Source of the DNA: Desulfonatronovibrionaceae bacterium | GTDB taxonomy: Bacteria; Desulfobacterota; Desulfovibrionia; Desulfovibrionales; Desulfonatronovibrionaceae | Assembly: GCA_046539845.1 (NCBI GenBank) | Contig: JBKHGE010000020.1 | Span: 1-40,447 of the forward strand | Direction: 5' to 3' | DNA length: 40,447 bases | Part shown: positions 10,120 through 16,100 of the stretch, one piece after another | How the letters are laid out: each line of letters opens with the position of its first letter | How positions within the stretch are numbered: position 1 is the stretch's first letter | Program-made: the position numbers

Positions 10120-13100
10120 TTCCCGCTCCAGATCTCAAGCCCGCCCCTAAGGCGGGCTTTCTGTTTTTTGACCGGCCTTGACCCCGGCCGCGAAACCAAT
10201 TAACCACCTTTACCTGCGCAGGTCCGGGACGTATTGCCTGTCGTCCCGGAGCTGCTTAAGACAAGGAAGAGCGCATGTCTCCCATGGGGCACACACGAAT
10301 TGCCCATATATAATGACACTCAACCCTTAATCGCTGACAAAATAAAGATGAATGAAAACAACCTTGAGCATTTGCTGGATAACGCCCAGAAAAAATTCAG
10401 GGTCGGTTTTGAGCCGGTAAAGATAAACAATACCGTTTTAAACATCCTGCAGATCCAGAACCTGGATGAATATCTGGAGACACTGGCGGACAAAAGCTCG
10501 GGTACTGATCCTTTAGAGCTCCCGTTTTGGGCCAAGATATGGCCGGCCTCCATTCTCCTCGCCTACTCTCTGGATCGGCTGACAGAACCCGGGGACCCGC
10601 ACAAGCAGACGGTTCTGGAACTTGGGGCAGGCACCGGCCTTTGCGGGCTCTATACGGCCGCTCTGGGCTTTGCAACCACAATCACAGACAACAACAAAGA
10701 CGCCCTGCTCTTTGCCCGTATCAACGCACTTAAAAACGACCTAGCCTCCAGGGTTAAGGTGGACTATGCGGATATGGGAAAGACAGTCCTTGATACCGGG
10801 TTTGATTATATCCTCGGCTCGGAGATCTTGTATATCCAGGATCTGAACCGGGCACTGGTCAAATTTATCTCCAGGCACCTGAATCCGGGCGGACGGGTTA
10901 TCCTGAGCGCGGACTACAAGCGGCAGTCCAAAAAATTCTTCAATCTGGCGGCCGAGGAATTCGATATCAGCCACAAGACAATCGGATATAAAGAAAAAAA
11001 CTCCCAGGGAAAGCAGGAAAGATTCTTATGCAGCATATACACCCTGACGCGCAAAAGAGATGATTAGGATATACCCCTCGCCAAAAGCATACACCCTGGA
11101 TCAGGACAAGGCCCGGGACCCGGAGAAAACCGGAGAATGGGCCAAAGAAGCCCTGATAAGCGGCGGCCGGGTCCTGGAGGATCTGATCCGCGTGGACTCC
11201 GGTCGCTTGGGAATCCCGGTATATATGAGCGTGTGCACCCGGGAGGCGGGCAAAATCCTGCCCGCGAGCAAGCAGATGGGCAAAGGGGCCTCCCCGGAGC
11301 AGGCCCGGGCCTCGGCCTTGATGGAGCTTGCGGAACGCTACAGCTTCTTTTGTTTCTGGGAACAGGGCGGCCGGACCATGACCTGGACGGAAGCGGAAAA
11401 TGAATTCGGCCGGTGTTTGATGCCCCTCCGGCTGATCGCCGCGTCCGTGGGCAACGACCTGCCCGAAGAAGAAATCCGCAGGATAATGGATCTGGTCCCC
11501 TGGCGTTTTGCTCCGTGCACGAATCTGTATTCGGAAGCTGAATACCACGCGCCTGTGGATTGGTTCCGCATGCTCAACGAGTTCAACGGCAGCTCGGCCG
11601 GGAATACGGCCATGGAATCCATATTCCAGGGGGCGTGTGAGCTGGTGGAAAGACATGTATGCGCCCGGATATCCGCAAATGACTTGGTCACGCCGGGCAT
11701 TGATCCGTCCAGCTTCAATCCCGGTCCCCTTCAGGAACTGTTTTTTAAATTCACTGCCAAAGGGATCAAGGTGATCCTCAAGGATTTTTCTCTGGATATG
11801 CCGGTACCCACGGTAGGCGCGGCTGCCTATGACCCGAAGACTTTTCCGGACAAGAGCGAAATCGTGTTTACCGCGGGGACAGCCGCTTCCCCGGACAAGG
11901 CGGCCATCCGGGCCCTGACCGAAGTGGCCCAGCTGGCTGGGGACTTTGAATCCGGACGACCCTACGAGCCCTCCGGGTTGCCCAAGCTGGCCGGTCTTGA
12001 GGAACTGGACTGGCTCCGAAAAGGGGGCCAAAGACCCCTTAACGCCCTACCGGACATCTCCAGTACTGATTTCGGAGAGGAACTCCGCGCTTTGATCTGC
12101 AGACTCGGAGAAAAGGGCTTTTATCTACACGTGCTGGAACTGACCTGTCCAGAACTCAATATACCTGCCCACTATAATTTTGTTCCGGGATTCGAGTTTC
12201 GCGAGCGCAGCCCCTCGGCCGGCGTAGGGATGTTTACCGCCAAGAAGATCGCTGCGGAGCTGCCTGTCGGCCGAGCCCGCCAGGCCTTGAATGAGCTGGC
12301 CCGCATCCGGCCGAGTGCTCCGTATATCCCTTTTCAAAGCGGGATGATCGCCCTGCGGGAAGGAGATACAAAGCAGGCGCAAACGGATTTTTTAAACGCG
12401 GCCGAGCTCCAGGAAAACCCTCAGGAACAAGCCCTGGCCCTGTTCTATGCCGGATACGCCCAGAGTCTGGAGGGAAACTGGCCCGGGGTACGGGAAAAAG
12501 TGACCCGGGCCCTGGATCTGGATTGTGAAGTCAAAGAGTACCACAATCTCCTGGGGGTGGCCCTGTTCAAAGAAAAAAAGTTCTCCCGGGCGGCCGTACA
12601 TTTCCAAAAGGCGCTCGAGCTGGACAGTGCTTCGGCTGTGGACATGGCCAACCTGGGCCTGTGCCACAAAAACATGGATGCGCGGGAGGAGGCCATATCC
12701 TGCCTCTCCAGCGCCCTACAGATAGATCCCGGCCTGGAGTTTGCGCACAAAGAACTCCTCGAACTTCTTTAGGCCGAGTCTCAGTTTTTGGCTAAAAGGG
12801 ATTGACAAAGGGGCTATTCGGTATTTAACTGAGAGTAATATTTGCTTGAGACGAAATTCACTTGTTTGGAAAGATTCAAACCGGAAAATGAACTCAAGCA
12901 GCGTGGCGACTTAAATGCATAAGGTGTAGGTTCTGTTTAATTCCTTACAAACTATTTTTAAGGAGGTAGTTAATATGGCCACAGTGGAATTCAAGGGGAA
13001 ACAGTTTGAAGTAGACGAAGACGGTTTCCTTCAGAAGTTTGAGCAGTGGAGCCCGGAATGGGTGGAATATGTAAAGGATCAGGAAGGAATCCCGGAGATC

Positions 13101-16100
13101 ACTGAAGAACATCAGAAAGTGATCGATTTTCTGCAGGACTACTATCAGAAAAACGGAATCGCCCCGATGGTCCGTATCCTGTCCAAGGTAACCGGCTTCA
13201 AGCTGAAGCACATCTACGAGCTGTTCCCGTCCGGCCCGGGCAAGGGAGCCTGTAAGATGGCCGGACTGCCCAAGCCCACCGGGTGCGTGTAGAACCAGCT
13301 GCGGCAAATACGGAAATCCAAAGCGGGTCTGCTTACAAACAGGCCCGCTTTTTTTTGCCGTCCTCGGAGTATAGCCCGAAAAGACGCAGCCGGCCTTTCC
13401 GGATAGCTTACCAAAAAGATTGGTTCGCCTGTCAATCCCTGTTCAGATATTTGTCCCTATCGCGCTCAAAGCGAAGTGTGGTCAGGACCGCGGCAATGCC
13501 CAAAGAGACAATGCTTATAATCAAAAGCCCCAGTTTCTGGGCCTCCCATCTCTGGGCAAAAAGGGAATGGGCCCAGCTTTGTCCGCTTTTCATGCCCAGG
13601 AACACGGCCAGGGGGAATACAACCACCCCGAATATCAAGGCCAGAGTTTCGATGACTAGGAAACGCTTGAGCAGGAAGAACGAGAACAGAAAAATATCCC
13701 GGAACTTGCTGACCACAACCAAGTTGCGGCGCAGCTCGTCCAGGATTTCCTCTGCCTCCTGGATATAAATATATCCCTGCCTGAATCCGTCCGGAGATTC
13801 CAGGCTCAGATCCCCGAAATTGTTCAGCCTGAGCGCGCAATCGTTGAACAGCCGGTTGGTGCGGCGGAGAAAGAAATGTTGAAAAGGGAACCAGGAATAC
13901 TCCCTTTCCACCCTGTGCAGCTCCTTGAGCATCCAGTCCCGCTTCTTCTTTAGTTCGAATATGCCCTGATCTATCCGTTTGTTGATGTCCTTTTGCAGCT
14001 GAATAGTTTCCAAAGACAGCCGCCTGACCGCGGTGTAATTGTCCCATTGTTTGAGTTCCGCGGTTTTCTTCAGCCGGCGGAGGAACTCCTCCCGGGCAGG
14101 ATGATTGGCGTCAAACCATTTCTCGACCCTGCCCTTGAGTTCATCCAGGCTTTTGGCGGCCTGGGTAGCCCTTTTCCTGGCCTGATCCCAGACATCGTAA
14201 AATCCGGACAAGAGGTGCAGGTGCCCGCGTCCCAACTCCGGATCAATGAGGGCCTTTAAAAACACCTCCGGGCTGTTTTCCATTATGGCTGTAAGCACTC
14301 CCAGGGCCTGATCCGGGAAACCCAGTTTGACCAAGCATACCCCCTGCCTGTATCTGGCCTCAACCATGTCCGGGGAAATCTTCAGGGCCTCAGCATAGGT
14401 CTGCAGGGCGTTTTCAATGTCCTCGTCCACCTCATACATCCGGCCTCGCAAATAGACATGGTACCCCCGCTGCAGGGGAGTATAGGACAGGCTTTCCGCT
14501 TCCACCCAATAGTTCAGGGCCTCCTTGCTGCGGCCCTCCTCCATGGCCAAAAAGCCCTGCAGGGTGCGGGGCTGATAATTCTTCCCGGACCGGAGCACAG
14601 CCTCTTTCAATCTTTTGGCCGCAAACCCGTGCTCGCCCATACGCAGGTTCTCCAGGGCAGTCCGCAGGGCCGGATCTTCATTCTCTGCCACGCTGCGCAG
14701 ACCTTCCGGCCACCTTTGTCCCCGGCTGCGGAGGATTTGACGCAGCATACGCAGCTGAGAAAGGCAATTTAGTTCCAGAATTCCCTGAGTCAGACGGCCG
14801 CTGTTCTCCCCCGACCCCTGAAGATCTCCGATGCCTTTGCCTGCGGCCAGATCCTGACCGATCTGTTCCAGGCCAGCGGCTATTTGGTCCAGATTCATCT
14901 GCTCCAAAGAAGACCACACCTCGGGCTGGGGGGACATCAGACTGCGCGTCGGGCACTTGGCCGGTGGATGTTCCTTCAAGCCGCAATAAAAGCAATGCCC
15001 ATATTTTCCGGAGACCAAAGCAGAGGGGAGGTATACCTCCAGGGCCCTGCGTCCGGTCTGATCTCCGGAGGCCGCATCCAGTTGGAAAAGATCGGTTATC
15101 TTTTTACCCTCCACTCCGGTCCGCGAGCTCACGGGCCGGACCCTGTCCCCGAGCTGATAGATGCTCTGCAAAGGGAGATAGAGGAAGTCCGGTTCGAGCT
15201 GCCCCCAATCCACAGAAAGGCGTCCGAGCACTGTAGGGCTCAGGGCAAAATCCTGCTTTTCCACTCCGACAAAAAGACAGGGGACCTTGTATTCGGAATC
15301 CTTCTCATTATTCAAGAGATCAATAAGATTCTGGGTCCAGCTGGAAAGCTGCTTGATATTTTCCAGATGGAATATATACTCGTATTTCTGGTTGGTAGTG
15401 TACTTGATGTTCAGCTTCTGGGCCAGTCCGGCAAAGACCTCGCGGTACTTACGCCATTTGTCGAGAAACTCCTTTTCCTTTTTTTTGCCCAGGGGATCGA
15501 TGATAAAGAGCCAACTCAAGGTGGGGGTGTAATTGACCTGCTCGTCCGGATTAAAGACAAGCCAGTTCCTCCCGGGTGCCCCGGATGAGGAATAGGGCTT
15601 TTCAAAACCAATGCCCGGCATTCCGGCGGAAACGTCCTTGAGCTTAGGATGGGCCCAGACCTGAAAGGAATCACCCGGATTGGTCTGCAGGCCGGAAAAT
15701 TCGTCACCCAGGGATAAAGAATACTTTAGAGTGGATCCGATCAATAACTTGCAGGGGAAAATAGCCACCTTTATGACTACCGGATTAATCCGCATCCATT
15801 TGGAAATCTGGGCCCAGGCGGGCAGAATATCCCGATTGGGGAAAAACCACAGGACCTGCCCCTCTTCAGAGGCTACCTCCCAGCCCCCAAAGCTGGACAG
15901 GGTCTGGGGGATGGATCCGGGAAGGGATTTGCCCCAGACTATCCAGGAGGCGTAGCCGGAGTGCAGTATATCGGTCCGCTCTATGCGGGGTATTTTTTGC
16001 AGCAGAGAAGAAATGTTCAGCATAAAAACACTCAGGAGGAAATATGGATTCGCAGGCGGTTATACACGCCATGAAAGAAAATCCCGACTTTGCCGCACGC

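What a model noticed while it worked through the whole genome (the two positions that open the first line are those of the whole stretch)
10348..13292. dsrC is the tail of an order-wide array: METTL21-like methyltransferase, YcaO-TPR enzyme, DsrC
The gene for DsrC (g01395), the sulfur carrier at the heart of dissimilatory sulfite reduction, lies directly behind a translationally coupled pair: a METTL21-type protein-lysine methyltransferase homolog (g01393) and a YcaO-TPR ATP-dependent amide-activating enzyme (g01394). g01394 is the counterpart of D. vulgaris DVU2210, the only YcaO of sulfate reducers with a phenotype (molybdate sensitivity) and no known substrate. The three-gene order is kept across the families of Desulfovibrionales and almost nowhere else, which points to DsrC, or the DsrC step, as what this modification pair works on.
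Evidence so far: g01393 Methyltransf_16 1e-17, best Swiss-Prot METTL21A 34%; g01394 YcaO 73-379 (7e-61) + TPR 493-557, ATP motif SAGNTAMESIFQGACELVER vs DVU2210 SAGNTEEESILQGSCELVER as quoted in PMC7774982; g01393 stop overlaps g01394 start (11060 vs 11067); g01395 is 80% identical to D. vulgaris DsvC and ends ..CKMAGLPKPTGCV. Table of 620 order genomes: Methyltransf_16 next to YcaO in 332 of the order and 337 of all 199,903 genomes; YcaO next to DsrC in 233 of the order, 343 of all (floors). Own check: YcaO-TPR found in 39 of 41 sampled order genomes (19 of 19 genera); in the 29 loci fetched the methyltransferase lies directly upstream in 23, dsrC 200-350 bp downstream on the same strand in 23, both in 21, [...]
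(Added by a program. Inside this text positions count along the whole contig: contig position 1 is position 1 of the stretch shown here. "Call 12" and the like, gene names such as g00115 and contig names such as C1 are that model's own, and its searches are not shown. The text may have been shortened before it was handed on; [...] marks where a part breaks off. The agent that wrote the report below was given it as the finding of a first reader that could run no searches.)

Follow-up and report, generated by a model that had tools for sequence, protein, structure and literature searches.

The report
Candidate enzymes that modify DsrC
Sulfate-reducing bacteria keep two protein-modifying enzymes next to the gene for their key sulfur carrier DsrC, and one of them probably swaps a backbone oxygen in DsrC for sulfur, a very rare change that would explain an old, unexplained mass shift.

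Summary
The three genes are real. The methyltransferase and YcaO-TPR overlap by 8 bp; dsrC has its own promoter-like site. Within Desulfovibrionales ycaO-dsrC adjacency holds in 95 of 129 genomes, but it lies in a longer ancestral block, so order alone proves little.

Phylum data are stronger. All 103 YcaO-TPR genomes of 301 carry one DsrC clade (Gly89 type); none of the other 188 has the enzyme. Outside the order ycaO flanks dsrC on either side (8 and 9 of 92), away from dsrAB.

Best reading (0.45): YcaO-TPR thioamidates DsrC near Pro88-Gly89; the methyltransferase is a candidate for the Lys marks. Against: the +16 is unlocalised and may be an alkylation artefact, DVU2210 deletion leaves respiration intact, and many Dsr systems lack the enzyme.

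No paper holds both YcaO and DsrC. The scan noted this before on other DNA (e1-4126682).

The parts
9890..10130 (+). tRNA-Gly(GCC), tRNA-Cys(GCA), tRNA-Gly(GCC) cluster; conserved upstream neighbour in the order, part of the ancestral block, not thought to be functionally tied
   Evidence: ARAGORN; tRNA-Gly near ycaO in 32 of 39 order loci
10137..10159 (+). terminator-like hairpin after the tRNAs
   Evidence: consensus scan only
10348..11067 (+). Methyltransf_16 (METTL21-like) seven-beta-strand methyltransferase; positional counterpart of DVU2209; candidate protein-lysine methyltransferase
   Evidence: DVU2209 is a 240-codon gene overlapping DVU2210 in the supplement of PMC10102598; 148 of 201 order genomes
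11060..12772 (+). YcaO-TPR enzyme (YcaO 73-379, helical repeats from about 389, TPR hit 494-522); counterpart of DVU2210; ATP/Mg-site residues invariant in 83 orthologs
   Evidence: model pLDDT 94.6; top Foldseek hit M. jannaschii YcaO 6PE3
12802..12807 (+). TTGACA -35-like element of a separate dsrC promoter (inferred)
   Evidence: TTGAC[AT] in 40 of 44 ycaO-dsrC gaps
12961..12966 (+). AGGAGG ribosome-binding site of dsrC
12975..13292 (+). dsrC, single copy in this genome; Cys93 and Cys104 present; Lys48, Lys78 and Gly89 present; proposed substrate
13320..13351 (+). terminator-like hairpin with T tail after dsrC

Best explanation
YcaO-TPR is an accessory protein-tailoring enzyme of one branch of the Dsr pathway, and DsrC is its most likely substrate. 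By analogy with the McrA and uL16 enzymes, it would use ATP and sulfide to turn one backbone C=O of folded DsrC into C=S within residues 77-90. The likeliest site is near Pro88-Gly89, at the start of the helix that carries Cys93. The TPR part would help bind the folded substrate. The coupled methyltransferase is a candidate for the Lys78/Lys48 trimethyl marks and may also act on AprA, AprB and L7/L12. The marks tune rather than enable the trisulfide cycle. Shown: gene anatomy, intact catalytic motif, distribution, linkage, and a published +42/+16 peptide. Inferred: the substrate, the thioamide chemistry, the site, the role of TPR, and the methyltransferase assignment.
For: (1) Profile over the same 301 phylum genomes. 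YcaO-TPR is in 103; all 103 have near-clade DsrC; 103 of 113 near-clade genomes have it; 0 of 52 with far-clade DsrC and 0 of 136 without DsrC. dsrA is in 79 of 80 tested (80 of the 92 non-order genomes). Three nested genomes lack dsrA, dsrC and any YcaO together (G294, G432, G426). (2) Linkage in different arrangements. ycaO>dsrC: 95 of 129 in the order and 8 of 92 outside. dsrC>ycaO: 9 of 92, also in 6 named loci, five of them Desulfarculaceae. ycaO lies 3.7 kb before dsrABDN-dsrC in family f35. A 485-aa paralog lies two genes after dsrC in G293 and about 0.5 kb from it in three congeners. In 15 of 15 adjacent non-order genomes tested, dsrA is on another contig or over 1 Mb away, as in this genome. 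(3) PMC3125180 Table 1 lists native D. vulgaris DsrC peptide 77-90 as 'Trimethylation+Oxidation' in three pull-downs. The peptide has no M, W, C or H, and thioamide differs from oxidation by 11 ppm, less than the acetyl/trimethyl gap the authors could not resolve. PMC13063428 states that such thioamides get misassigned as oxidation. (4) Gly89 is invariant in 83 DsrCs from YcaO-TPR genomes; Ala is in 17 of 17 far-clade ones, and one nested YcaO-TPR-less pair has gone back to Ala. The uL16 G83A variant, next to the thioamide, is a poor substrate. (5) Closest solved YcaO by sequence and fold is the M. jannaschii enzyme. (6) dsrC and DVU2210 are both parallel-evolution targets in sulfate-free syntrophy. 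(7) A mild knockout phenotype matches the McrA precedent.
Against: The +16 is not localised, and the DsrC spectrum is not in the readable supplement. Iodoacetic acid was used on some samples, so +58 could be carboxymethyl-Lys (22 ppm away) or ex vivo oxidation. The DVU2210 deletion grows like wild type on sulfate and all mutants respire sulfite; the authors conclude there is no direct role in sulfate reduction. dsrA plus dsrC genomes without the enzyme exist (10 of 10 tested have dsrA). Gly89 stays in 12 of 14 near-clade genomes without the ortholog. The profile is largely one clade, and I ran no clade-marker control. The co-losses can be single deletions or assembly gaps. Adjacency is lost in six order genera and absent in 73 of 80 named loci from other groups, many truncated. 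dsrC has its own promoter-like site. Both proteins are acidic (median pI 5.2 and 5.4), unlike the complementary YcaO-uL16 pair. A second Methyltransf_16-like gene exists in this genome. Native DsrAB-DsrC crystal structures exist and I recall no thioamide reported in them; I did not see coordinates.
Confidence: 0.45

Rival explanations
1. YcaO-TPR serves the Dsr pathway but modifies another member (DsrA/B, DsrMK, AprAB), as methanogen YcaO modifies the terminal enzyme McrA; dsrC is only a co-inherited neighbour.
For: The profile cannot separate dsrC from dsrA (79 of 80). G156 keeps dsrC but lacks dsrA and YcaO. In f35 ycaO is nearer dsrA than dsrC. AprA and AprB also carry methyl-lysines.
Against: Where dsrC and dsrAB are apart, ycaO sits with dsrC (15 of 15 tested outside the order; this genome). 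The only unexplained +16 in the published table is on DsrC.
Confidence: 0.2
2. Linkage by descent. The enzymes tailor a housekeeping protein unrelated to sulfur (for example a ribosomal protein, as for E. coli YcaO), and dsrC shares an old chromosomal block.
For: The block includes tRNAs, dksA, NFACT and moaE. dsrC has its own promoter-like site. Neighbours outside the order are often translation genes such as valS and fusA. A bacterial METTL20 methylates L7/L12 (reference title only).
Against: A universal target does not explain absence from 188 of 188 genomes without near-clade DsrC or the nested co-losses. Adjacency occurs in two orders with different flanks. The uL16-type model scores 45.5 against a cut-off of 700.
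Confidence: 0.15
3. DsrC is a partner, not the substrate: it hands sulfur (persulfide or trisulfide) to YcaO-TPR for thioamidation of a third protein, in place of TfuA.
For: DsrC belongs to the TusE/DsrC sulfur-relay family. moaE is a frequent neighbour (20 of 39 loci), as near methanogen ycaO. No TfuA gene appeared among the annotated neighbours.
Against: E. coli YcaO works with free sulfide in vitro, and these cells make abundant sulfide (own knowledge). It leaves the +16 on DsrC unexplained.
Confidence: 0.1
4. The enzyme acts in molybdenum or oxyanion metabolism, for example activating molybdate as the 2020 paper proposed, or working with MoaE.
For: Loss of DVU2210 gives molybdate resistance in a sat deletion. 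ycaO abuts moaE where dsrC has moved away in genus g19.
Against: The moaE link is seen only inside the order (none in 80 named loci). DVU2210 expressed in E. coli gave no molybdate sensitivity, which fits a need for a host-specific substrate (inference).
Confidence: 0.07

Closest known systems
Methanogen YcaO (methanogenesis marker 1, TIGR03266; MJ1094, 6PE3) that thioamidates McrA Gly465
   Same: Stand-alone YcaO tied to a terminal step of anaerobic energy metabolism; best NCBIfam, PDB-sequence (YcaO domain) and Foldseek match; non-essential with a mild phenotype; moaE often nearby
   Different: 104.8 bits against a cut-off of 365, about 21% identity; fused helical/TPR tail; no TfuA seen among neighbours; proposed target is a small carrier protein
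E. coli YcaO, thioamidase of ribosomal protein uL16 Met82 (PMC13063428)
   Same: Modifies a folded protein with ATP, Mg and sulfide; C-terminal TPR-like region; +16 long mistaken for oxidation; Gly after the site matters
   Different: 45.5 bits against 700; pI 5.2 against 4.4; restricted to one Dsr clade instead of Pseudomonadota; proposed substrate is acidic
D. vulgaris DVU2209-DVU2210 (PMC7774982, PMC10102598)
   Same: Same overlapping two-gene layout, domain order and ATP motif (16 of 20); followed by a long opposite-strand gene like the 863-aa one here
   Different: There dsrC (DVU2776) lies about 577 kb away; no substrate or link to DsrC is proposed in the passages read
METTL21/METTL20 seven-beta-strand protein-lysine methyltransferases (PF10294)
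   Same: Family score over cut-off; best solved matches are METTL21A-D with the W-x-A, glycine-rich and D/E-x-x-Y segments aligned
   Different: Distant (E 1.5e-9); bacterial, coupled to a YcaO; substrates untested

Membership tests
YcaO superfamily (PF02624) | profile score over the curated cut-off | tested here: met
   204.4 bits against 25.7
YcaO superfamily (PF02624) | ATP/Mg motif S-x6-7-E-x3-Q-x3-E-x-x-E-R | tested here: met
   E186, Q190, E194, E197, R198 invariant in 83 of 83; S179 in 61 of 83 (motif)
YcaO superfamily (PF02624) | YcaO fold | tested here: met
   model pLDDT 94.6; Foldseek E 3e-16 to 6PE3
McrA thioamidation YcaO (TIGR03266) | equivalog score | tested here: not met
   104.8 against 365
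McrA thioamidation YcaO (TIGR03266) | TfuA partner gene | tested here: inconclusive
   none among neighbours annotated; no genome-wide TfuA search run; TfuA is not obligatory
Protein-thioamidating YcaO (works-like claim) | ATP- and sulfide-dependent +15.977 on a folded protein | not testable with these tools
   only indirect: unlocalised +16 on DsrC peptide 77-90
uL16-thioamidating YcaO (NF040716) | equivalog score and very low pI (about 4.4) | tested here: not met
   45.5 against 700; median pI 5.2
Azoline-forming RiPP YcaO (TIGR03604) | family score | tested here: not met
   76.2 against 219.25
Azoline-forming RiPP YcaO (TIGR03604) | precursor peptide and E1/RRE partner in the locus; Pro-rich C-terminus (feature recalled) | tested here: inconclusive
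   no such partner among annotated neighbours and the chain runs on into helical repeats; ORFs under 60 aa were not examined
Methyltransf_16 lysine methyltransferases | profile score and aligned SAM-binding motifs | tested here: met
   61.7 against 21; alignment to METTL21A/B/D
Methyltransf_16 lysine methyltransferases | lysine methylation of a protein substrate | not testable with these tools
   DsrC, AprA, AprB and L7/L12 are methylated in D. vulgaris; no enzyme is named in the main text
DsrC of dissimilatory sulfite reduction | family score, both C-terminal cysteines, dsrAB in the genome | tested here: met
   TIGR03342 122.9 against 53.5; C93 and C104 invariant; dsrABDN on contig C3

The most novel reading that the evidence does not exclude
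DsrC of Desulfovibrionales and related sulfate reducers is a third protein with a backbone thioamide. YcaO-TPR installs it near Pro88-Gly89, beside the trisulfide-forming Cys93, and the coupled methyltransferase adds trimethyl-Lys78 on the same peptide. Sulfate reducers and methanogens would then both tune the terminal step of their respiration with a YcaO thioamide, and molybdate would drain ATP through this enzyme-DsrC pair.
Probability: 0.3. Interest if true: 0.92.

Novelty: new variant of a known kind. Interest (0 to 1): 0.77.

Why it matters
PMC13063428 names only two proteins with a natural backbone thioamide, McrA and uL16. DsrC is the essential hub of dissimilatory sulfite reduction (essential). 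The recent reconstitution I read used archaeal DsrC made in E. coli, which would lack such marks. [quoted passage not shown] A DVU2210 deletion strain (JW9479) and transposon mutants of DVU2209 exist, so one high-resolution MS comparison can settle it.

Tried and rejected
Complex prediction of YcaO-TPR with DsrC, ATP and Mg, with 83-row alignments: 'no answer', score 0.00, controls not folded; used neither for nor against.

RNA runs for 10300-13400: none was listed, so co-transcription is untested.

A Rex-like operator in the ycaO-dsrC gap (consensus recalled): best scores close to shuffles, rejected. The plain promoter scan missed the dsrC element; only the cross-genome count shows it.

A conserved alternative neighbour outside the order: clustering of ORFs around 80 named loci gave only lineage-limited housekeeping genes (a 3'-5' exonuclease/HRDC gene in 23 loci, his genes, nadA, maf).

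YcaO hits in G193, G360 and G460, and the longer of the two in G235, do not match the window protein, so I treated them as other families. The longer hit in G330 was not fetched; it did not reach the ortholog threshold.

Gaucher et al. 2008 is not held; I saw only its title. My recollection that it reports +42 on DsrC in two species is unverified.

No DsrC spectrum text is in Fig. S7. DVU2209 and DVU2210 do not occur in the 23 readable supplements of PMC3125180. The RB-TnSeq paper's readable supplement gave only essentiality rows, and its molybdate section does not name the gene. The 2026 DsrMKJOP preprint passages gave nothing on these residues; its supplements are closed and could bear on which DsrC surface is bound.

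In one evolved line DVU2210 and dsrC mutations fall in different sub-lineages. This is n=1 and read from figure labels, so I did not count it.

No clade-marker control for the phylogenetic profile was run.

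
Full report
OBSERVATION. The window holds a tRNA-Gly/Cys/Gly cluster, a Methyltransf_16 gene (10348-11067), a YcaO-TPR gene overlapping it by 8 bp (11060-12772), a 202-bp gap, dsrC (12975-13292) and a terminator-like hairpin. 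DsrC is single-copy, and dsrABDN lie on another contig. The YcaO ATP motif matches DVU2210 at 16 of 20 positions, and its acidic ligands are invariant in 83 orthologs. The supplement of PMC10102598 shows DVU2209 overlapping DVU2210, both non-essential, with essential dsrC about 577 kb away.

WITHIN THE ORDER. Of 201 genomes, 187 have YcaO-TPR, 194 DsrC and 148 the methyltransferase. The tools print at most 150 matches. I transcribed 135 YcaO and 129 DsrC positions; ycaO directly precedes dsrC in 95 of the 129 with both (28 genera). The 34 others are g19 (19), g16 (7), g18 (3), g28, g30 and g43, plus two probable contig breaks. The trio is part of a longer block: NFACT, dksA, tRNAs, methyltransferase, ycaO, dsrC, an 863-aa TPR gene, moaE. 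In 39 hand-picked loci tRNA-Gly appears in 32, DsrC 33, dksA 22 and moaE 20. dsrC carries its own TTGACA element in 40 of 44 gaps.

ACROSS THE PHYLUM. In one set of 301 genomes, YcaO-TPR (E<=1e-60) occurs in 103. All 103 have a DsrC of the near clade (E<=1e-46, a threshold set at a gap in the scores after seeing them). 103 of 113 near-clade genomes have the enzyme; 0 of 52 far-clade and 0 of 136 DsrC-less genomes do. Of the ten near-clade exceptions, five have no YcaO hit, two have another YcaO family, two keep a 485-aa paralog and one has a split copy. G294, G432 and G426 lack dsrA, dsrC and YcaO while their relatives have all three. Methyltransferase matches at E<=1e-20 occur in 60 genomes, all YcaO-positive; at 1e-12, 19 of 89 are not. 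Kin are not independent and no clade-marker control was run, so this shows association with a clade of Dsr systems and no more.

LINKAGE OUTSIDE THE ORDER. Among 92 non-order genomes, ycaO precedes dsrC in 8, follows it in 9, lies within 21 kb in 10, is far away on the same contig in 8 and on another contig in 57. The reversed order appears in 6 of 80 named loci, five of them Desulfarculaceae. One more Desulfarculaceae locus is cut off, and the other 73 show no dsrC within the flanks held. In family f35 ycaO lies four genes before dsrABDN-dsrC-dsrT-dsrM. For 15 of the 17 adjacent cases dsrA was searched and is elsewhere in all 15. ycaO thus travels with dsrC and not with dsrAB, between different flanking genes.

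A PUBLISHED MODIFICATION. PMC3125180 (section 12, passages and supplements read) lists native D. vulgaris DsrC peptide LK*EVYELFPSGPGK as 'Trimethylation+Oxidation' in three pull-downs, a second DsrC lysine as +42, and methyl-lysines on AprA, AprB and L7/L12. The word methyltransferase does not occur in its main text. The peptide has no Met, Trp, Cys or His. Thioamide (+15.977) and oxidation (+15.995) differ by 11 ppm on it, and the authors could not resolve acetyl from trimethyl, which is 22 ppm. The same confusion hid the uL16 thioamide (PMC13063428, introduction and part of results read). Caveats: the +16 is not placed, the spectrum is not readable, and iodoacetic acid was used on some samples, so carboxymethyl-Lys fits +58 as well.

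A CANDIDATE SITE. Gly89 is invariant in 83 DsrCs paired with YcaO-TPR. All 17 far-clade DsrCs sampled have Ala. In a 72-row tree with few columns, G235 and G330 form one pair nested among Gly89 sequences, lack the ortholog and carry Ala89 and Cys70. This is one event, and 12 other genomes without the ortholog keep Gly. In the DsrC model residues 84-86 are a turn and 87-96 the helix with Cys93, so the site is not a long loop like that of uL16. The substrate might be newly made or locally unfolded DsrC (inference).

ENZYME TYPE. The protein is a YcaO by profile, motif and fold. It fails the cut-offs of the McrA, uL16 and azoline families but is closest to the methanogen enzyme. Atlas clusters of this architecture are mostly Thermodesulfobacteriota. 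It works like a protein thioamidase on present evidence; it is not a member of either described subfamily.

PHENOTYPES. PMC7774982 (results and discussion read): the deletion respires sulfate and sulfite normally, reaches higher density in fermentation, and relieves molybdate stress only without sat; the gene does not sensitise E. coli. This argues against an essential role and fits a tuning mark, as for McrA (PMC5589413, passages). PMC8319347 and its preprint (two sections and passages) list dsrC missense changes and DVU2210 among parallel-evolution genes in syntrophy. Genomes with dsrA and dsrC but no ortholog exist.

LITERATURE STATUS. No held paper contains both YcaO and DsrC. Three contain DVU2210, one contains the DsrC peptide, one joins DsrC with trimethylation, and one joins YcaO, sulfate-reducing and tetratricopeptide. 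Subscription papers are mostly missing, including Gaucher 2008. An earlier scan note on another genome, e1-4126682, reached the same reading. I saw it, after recording mine; it is not independent evidence.

VERDICT. The feature is real. I put about 0.55 on DsrC being the YcaO-TPR substrate by any chemistry, 0.45 on the best explanation as stated, about 0.4 on the methyltransferase making the DsrC lysine marks, and 0.3 on the full novel case. These odds are judgement. It is a new variant of a known kind, and one MS comparison with existing mutants would decide it.

Noticed in passing
L071:12443-13897 (-); L277-L289: A 485-aa YcaO paralog (31% identical over the YcaO domain, ATP motif intact) in 13 of 301 phylum genomes at E<=1e-130. 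It lies two genes after dsrC, behind a helix-hairpin-helix gene, in G293 and about 0.5 kb from dsrC in G475, G453 and G381.
   Followed up: partly
L158-L164: Several order genomes carry a second, near-identical dsrC away from ycaO; all seven read keep Gly89 and both cysteines.
   Followed up: partly
L072:3014-3328 (-); L078:18104-18418 (+): Divergent DsrC-like paralogs (43-46% identity) in family f23 that keep both C-terminal cysteines but change the SGPG loop; one lies 1.1 kb from ycaO.
   Followed up: no
L006-L029, L111, L112: In genera g19, g18 and g28 ycaO abuts moaE with a gap of about 20-80 bp after dsrC moved away; g19 and g18 also lack the methyltransferase.
   Followed up: partly
G000:C4:26864-27451 (-): A second Methyltransf_16-like gene in this genome (26% identity), a rival for the lysine marks.
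   Followed up: partly
L068:5160-6317 (+): A 386-aa protein without a Pfam family, conserved directly before dsrA in family f35 with a TPR gene and a CxxCxxCC gene between it and ycaO.
   Followed up: no
L144 (G156): A reduced genome keeps an intact dsrC but has no dsrA and no YcaO hit.
   Followed up: partly
L251: A YcaO-TPR ortholog on a 4.3-kb contig of a record labelled Coriobacteriia, with no DsrC found in that genome; possibly a mis-binned contig.
   Followed up: partly
L068:1415-3282; G323:C39:1388-2313: ycaO is split into two frames in G409 and G323; pseudogene or assembly error not resolved.
   Followed up: no
L084, L089: DsrC of G235 and G330 shows three residues of the far clade (Ile66, Cys70, Ala89) on a near-clade backbone; reversion or recombination.
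   Followed up: partly
window 13432-16023 (-): 863-aa protein with only weak TPR hits, conserved after dsrC or ycaO in 13 of 39 order loci; function unknown.
   Followed up: no
window 6760-9684 (-): dksA, NFACT (RqcH-like), a CGGC-domain gene and a NifU_N gene in a row; dksA-NFACT is part of the conserved block.
   Followed up: no
window 16044-18541: moaE-like gene (+), PAPS-reductase-domain gene and M23 peptidase (-).
   Followed up: no
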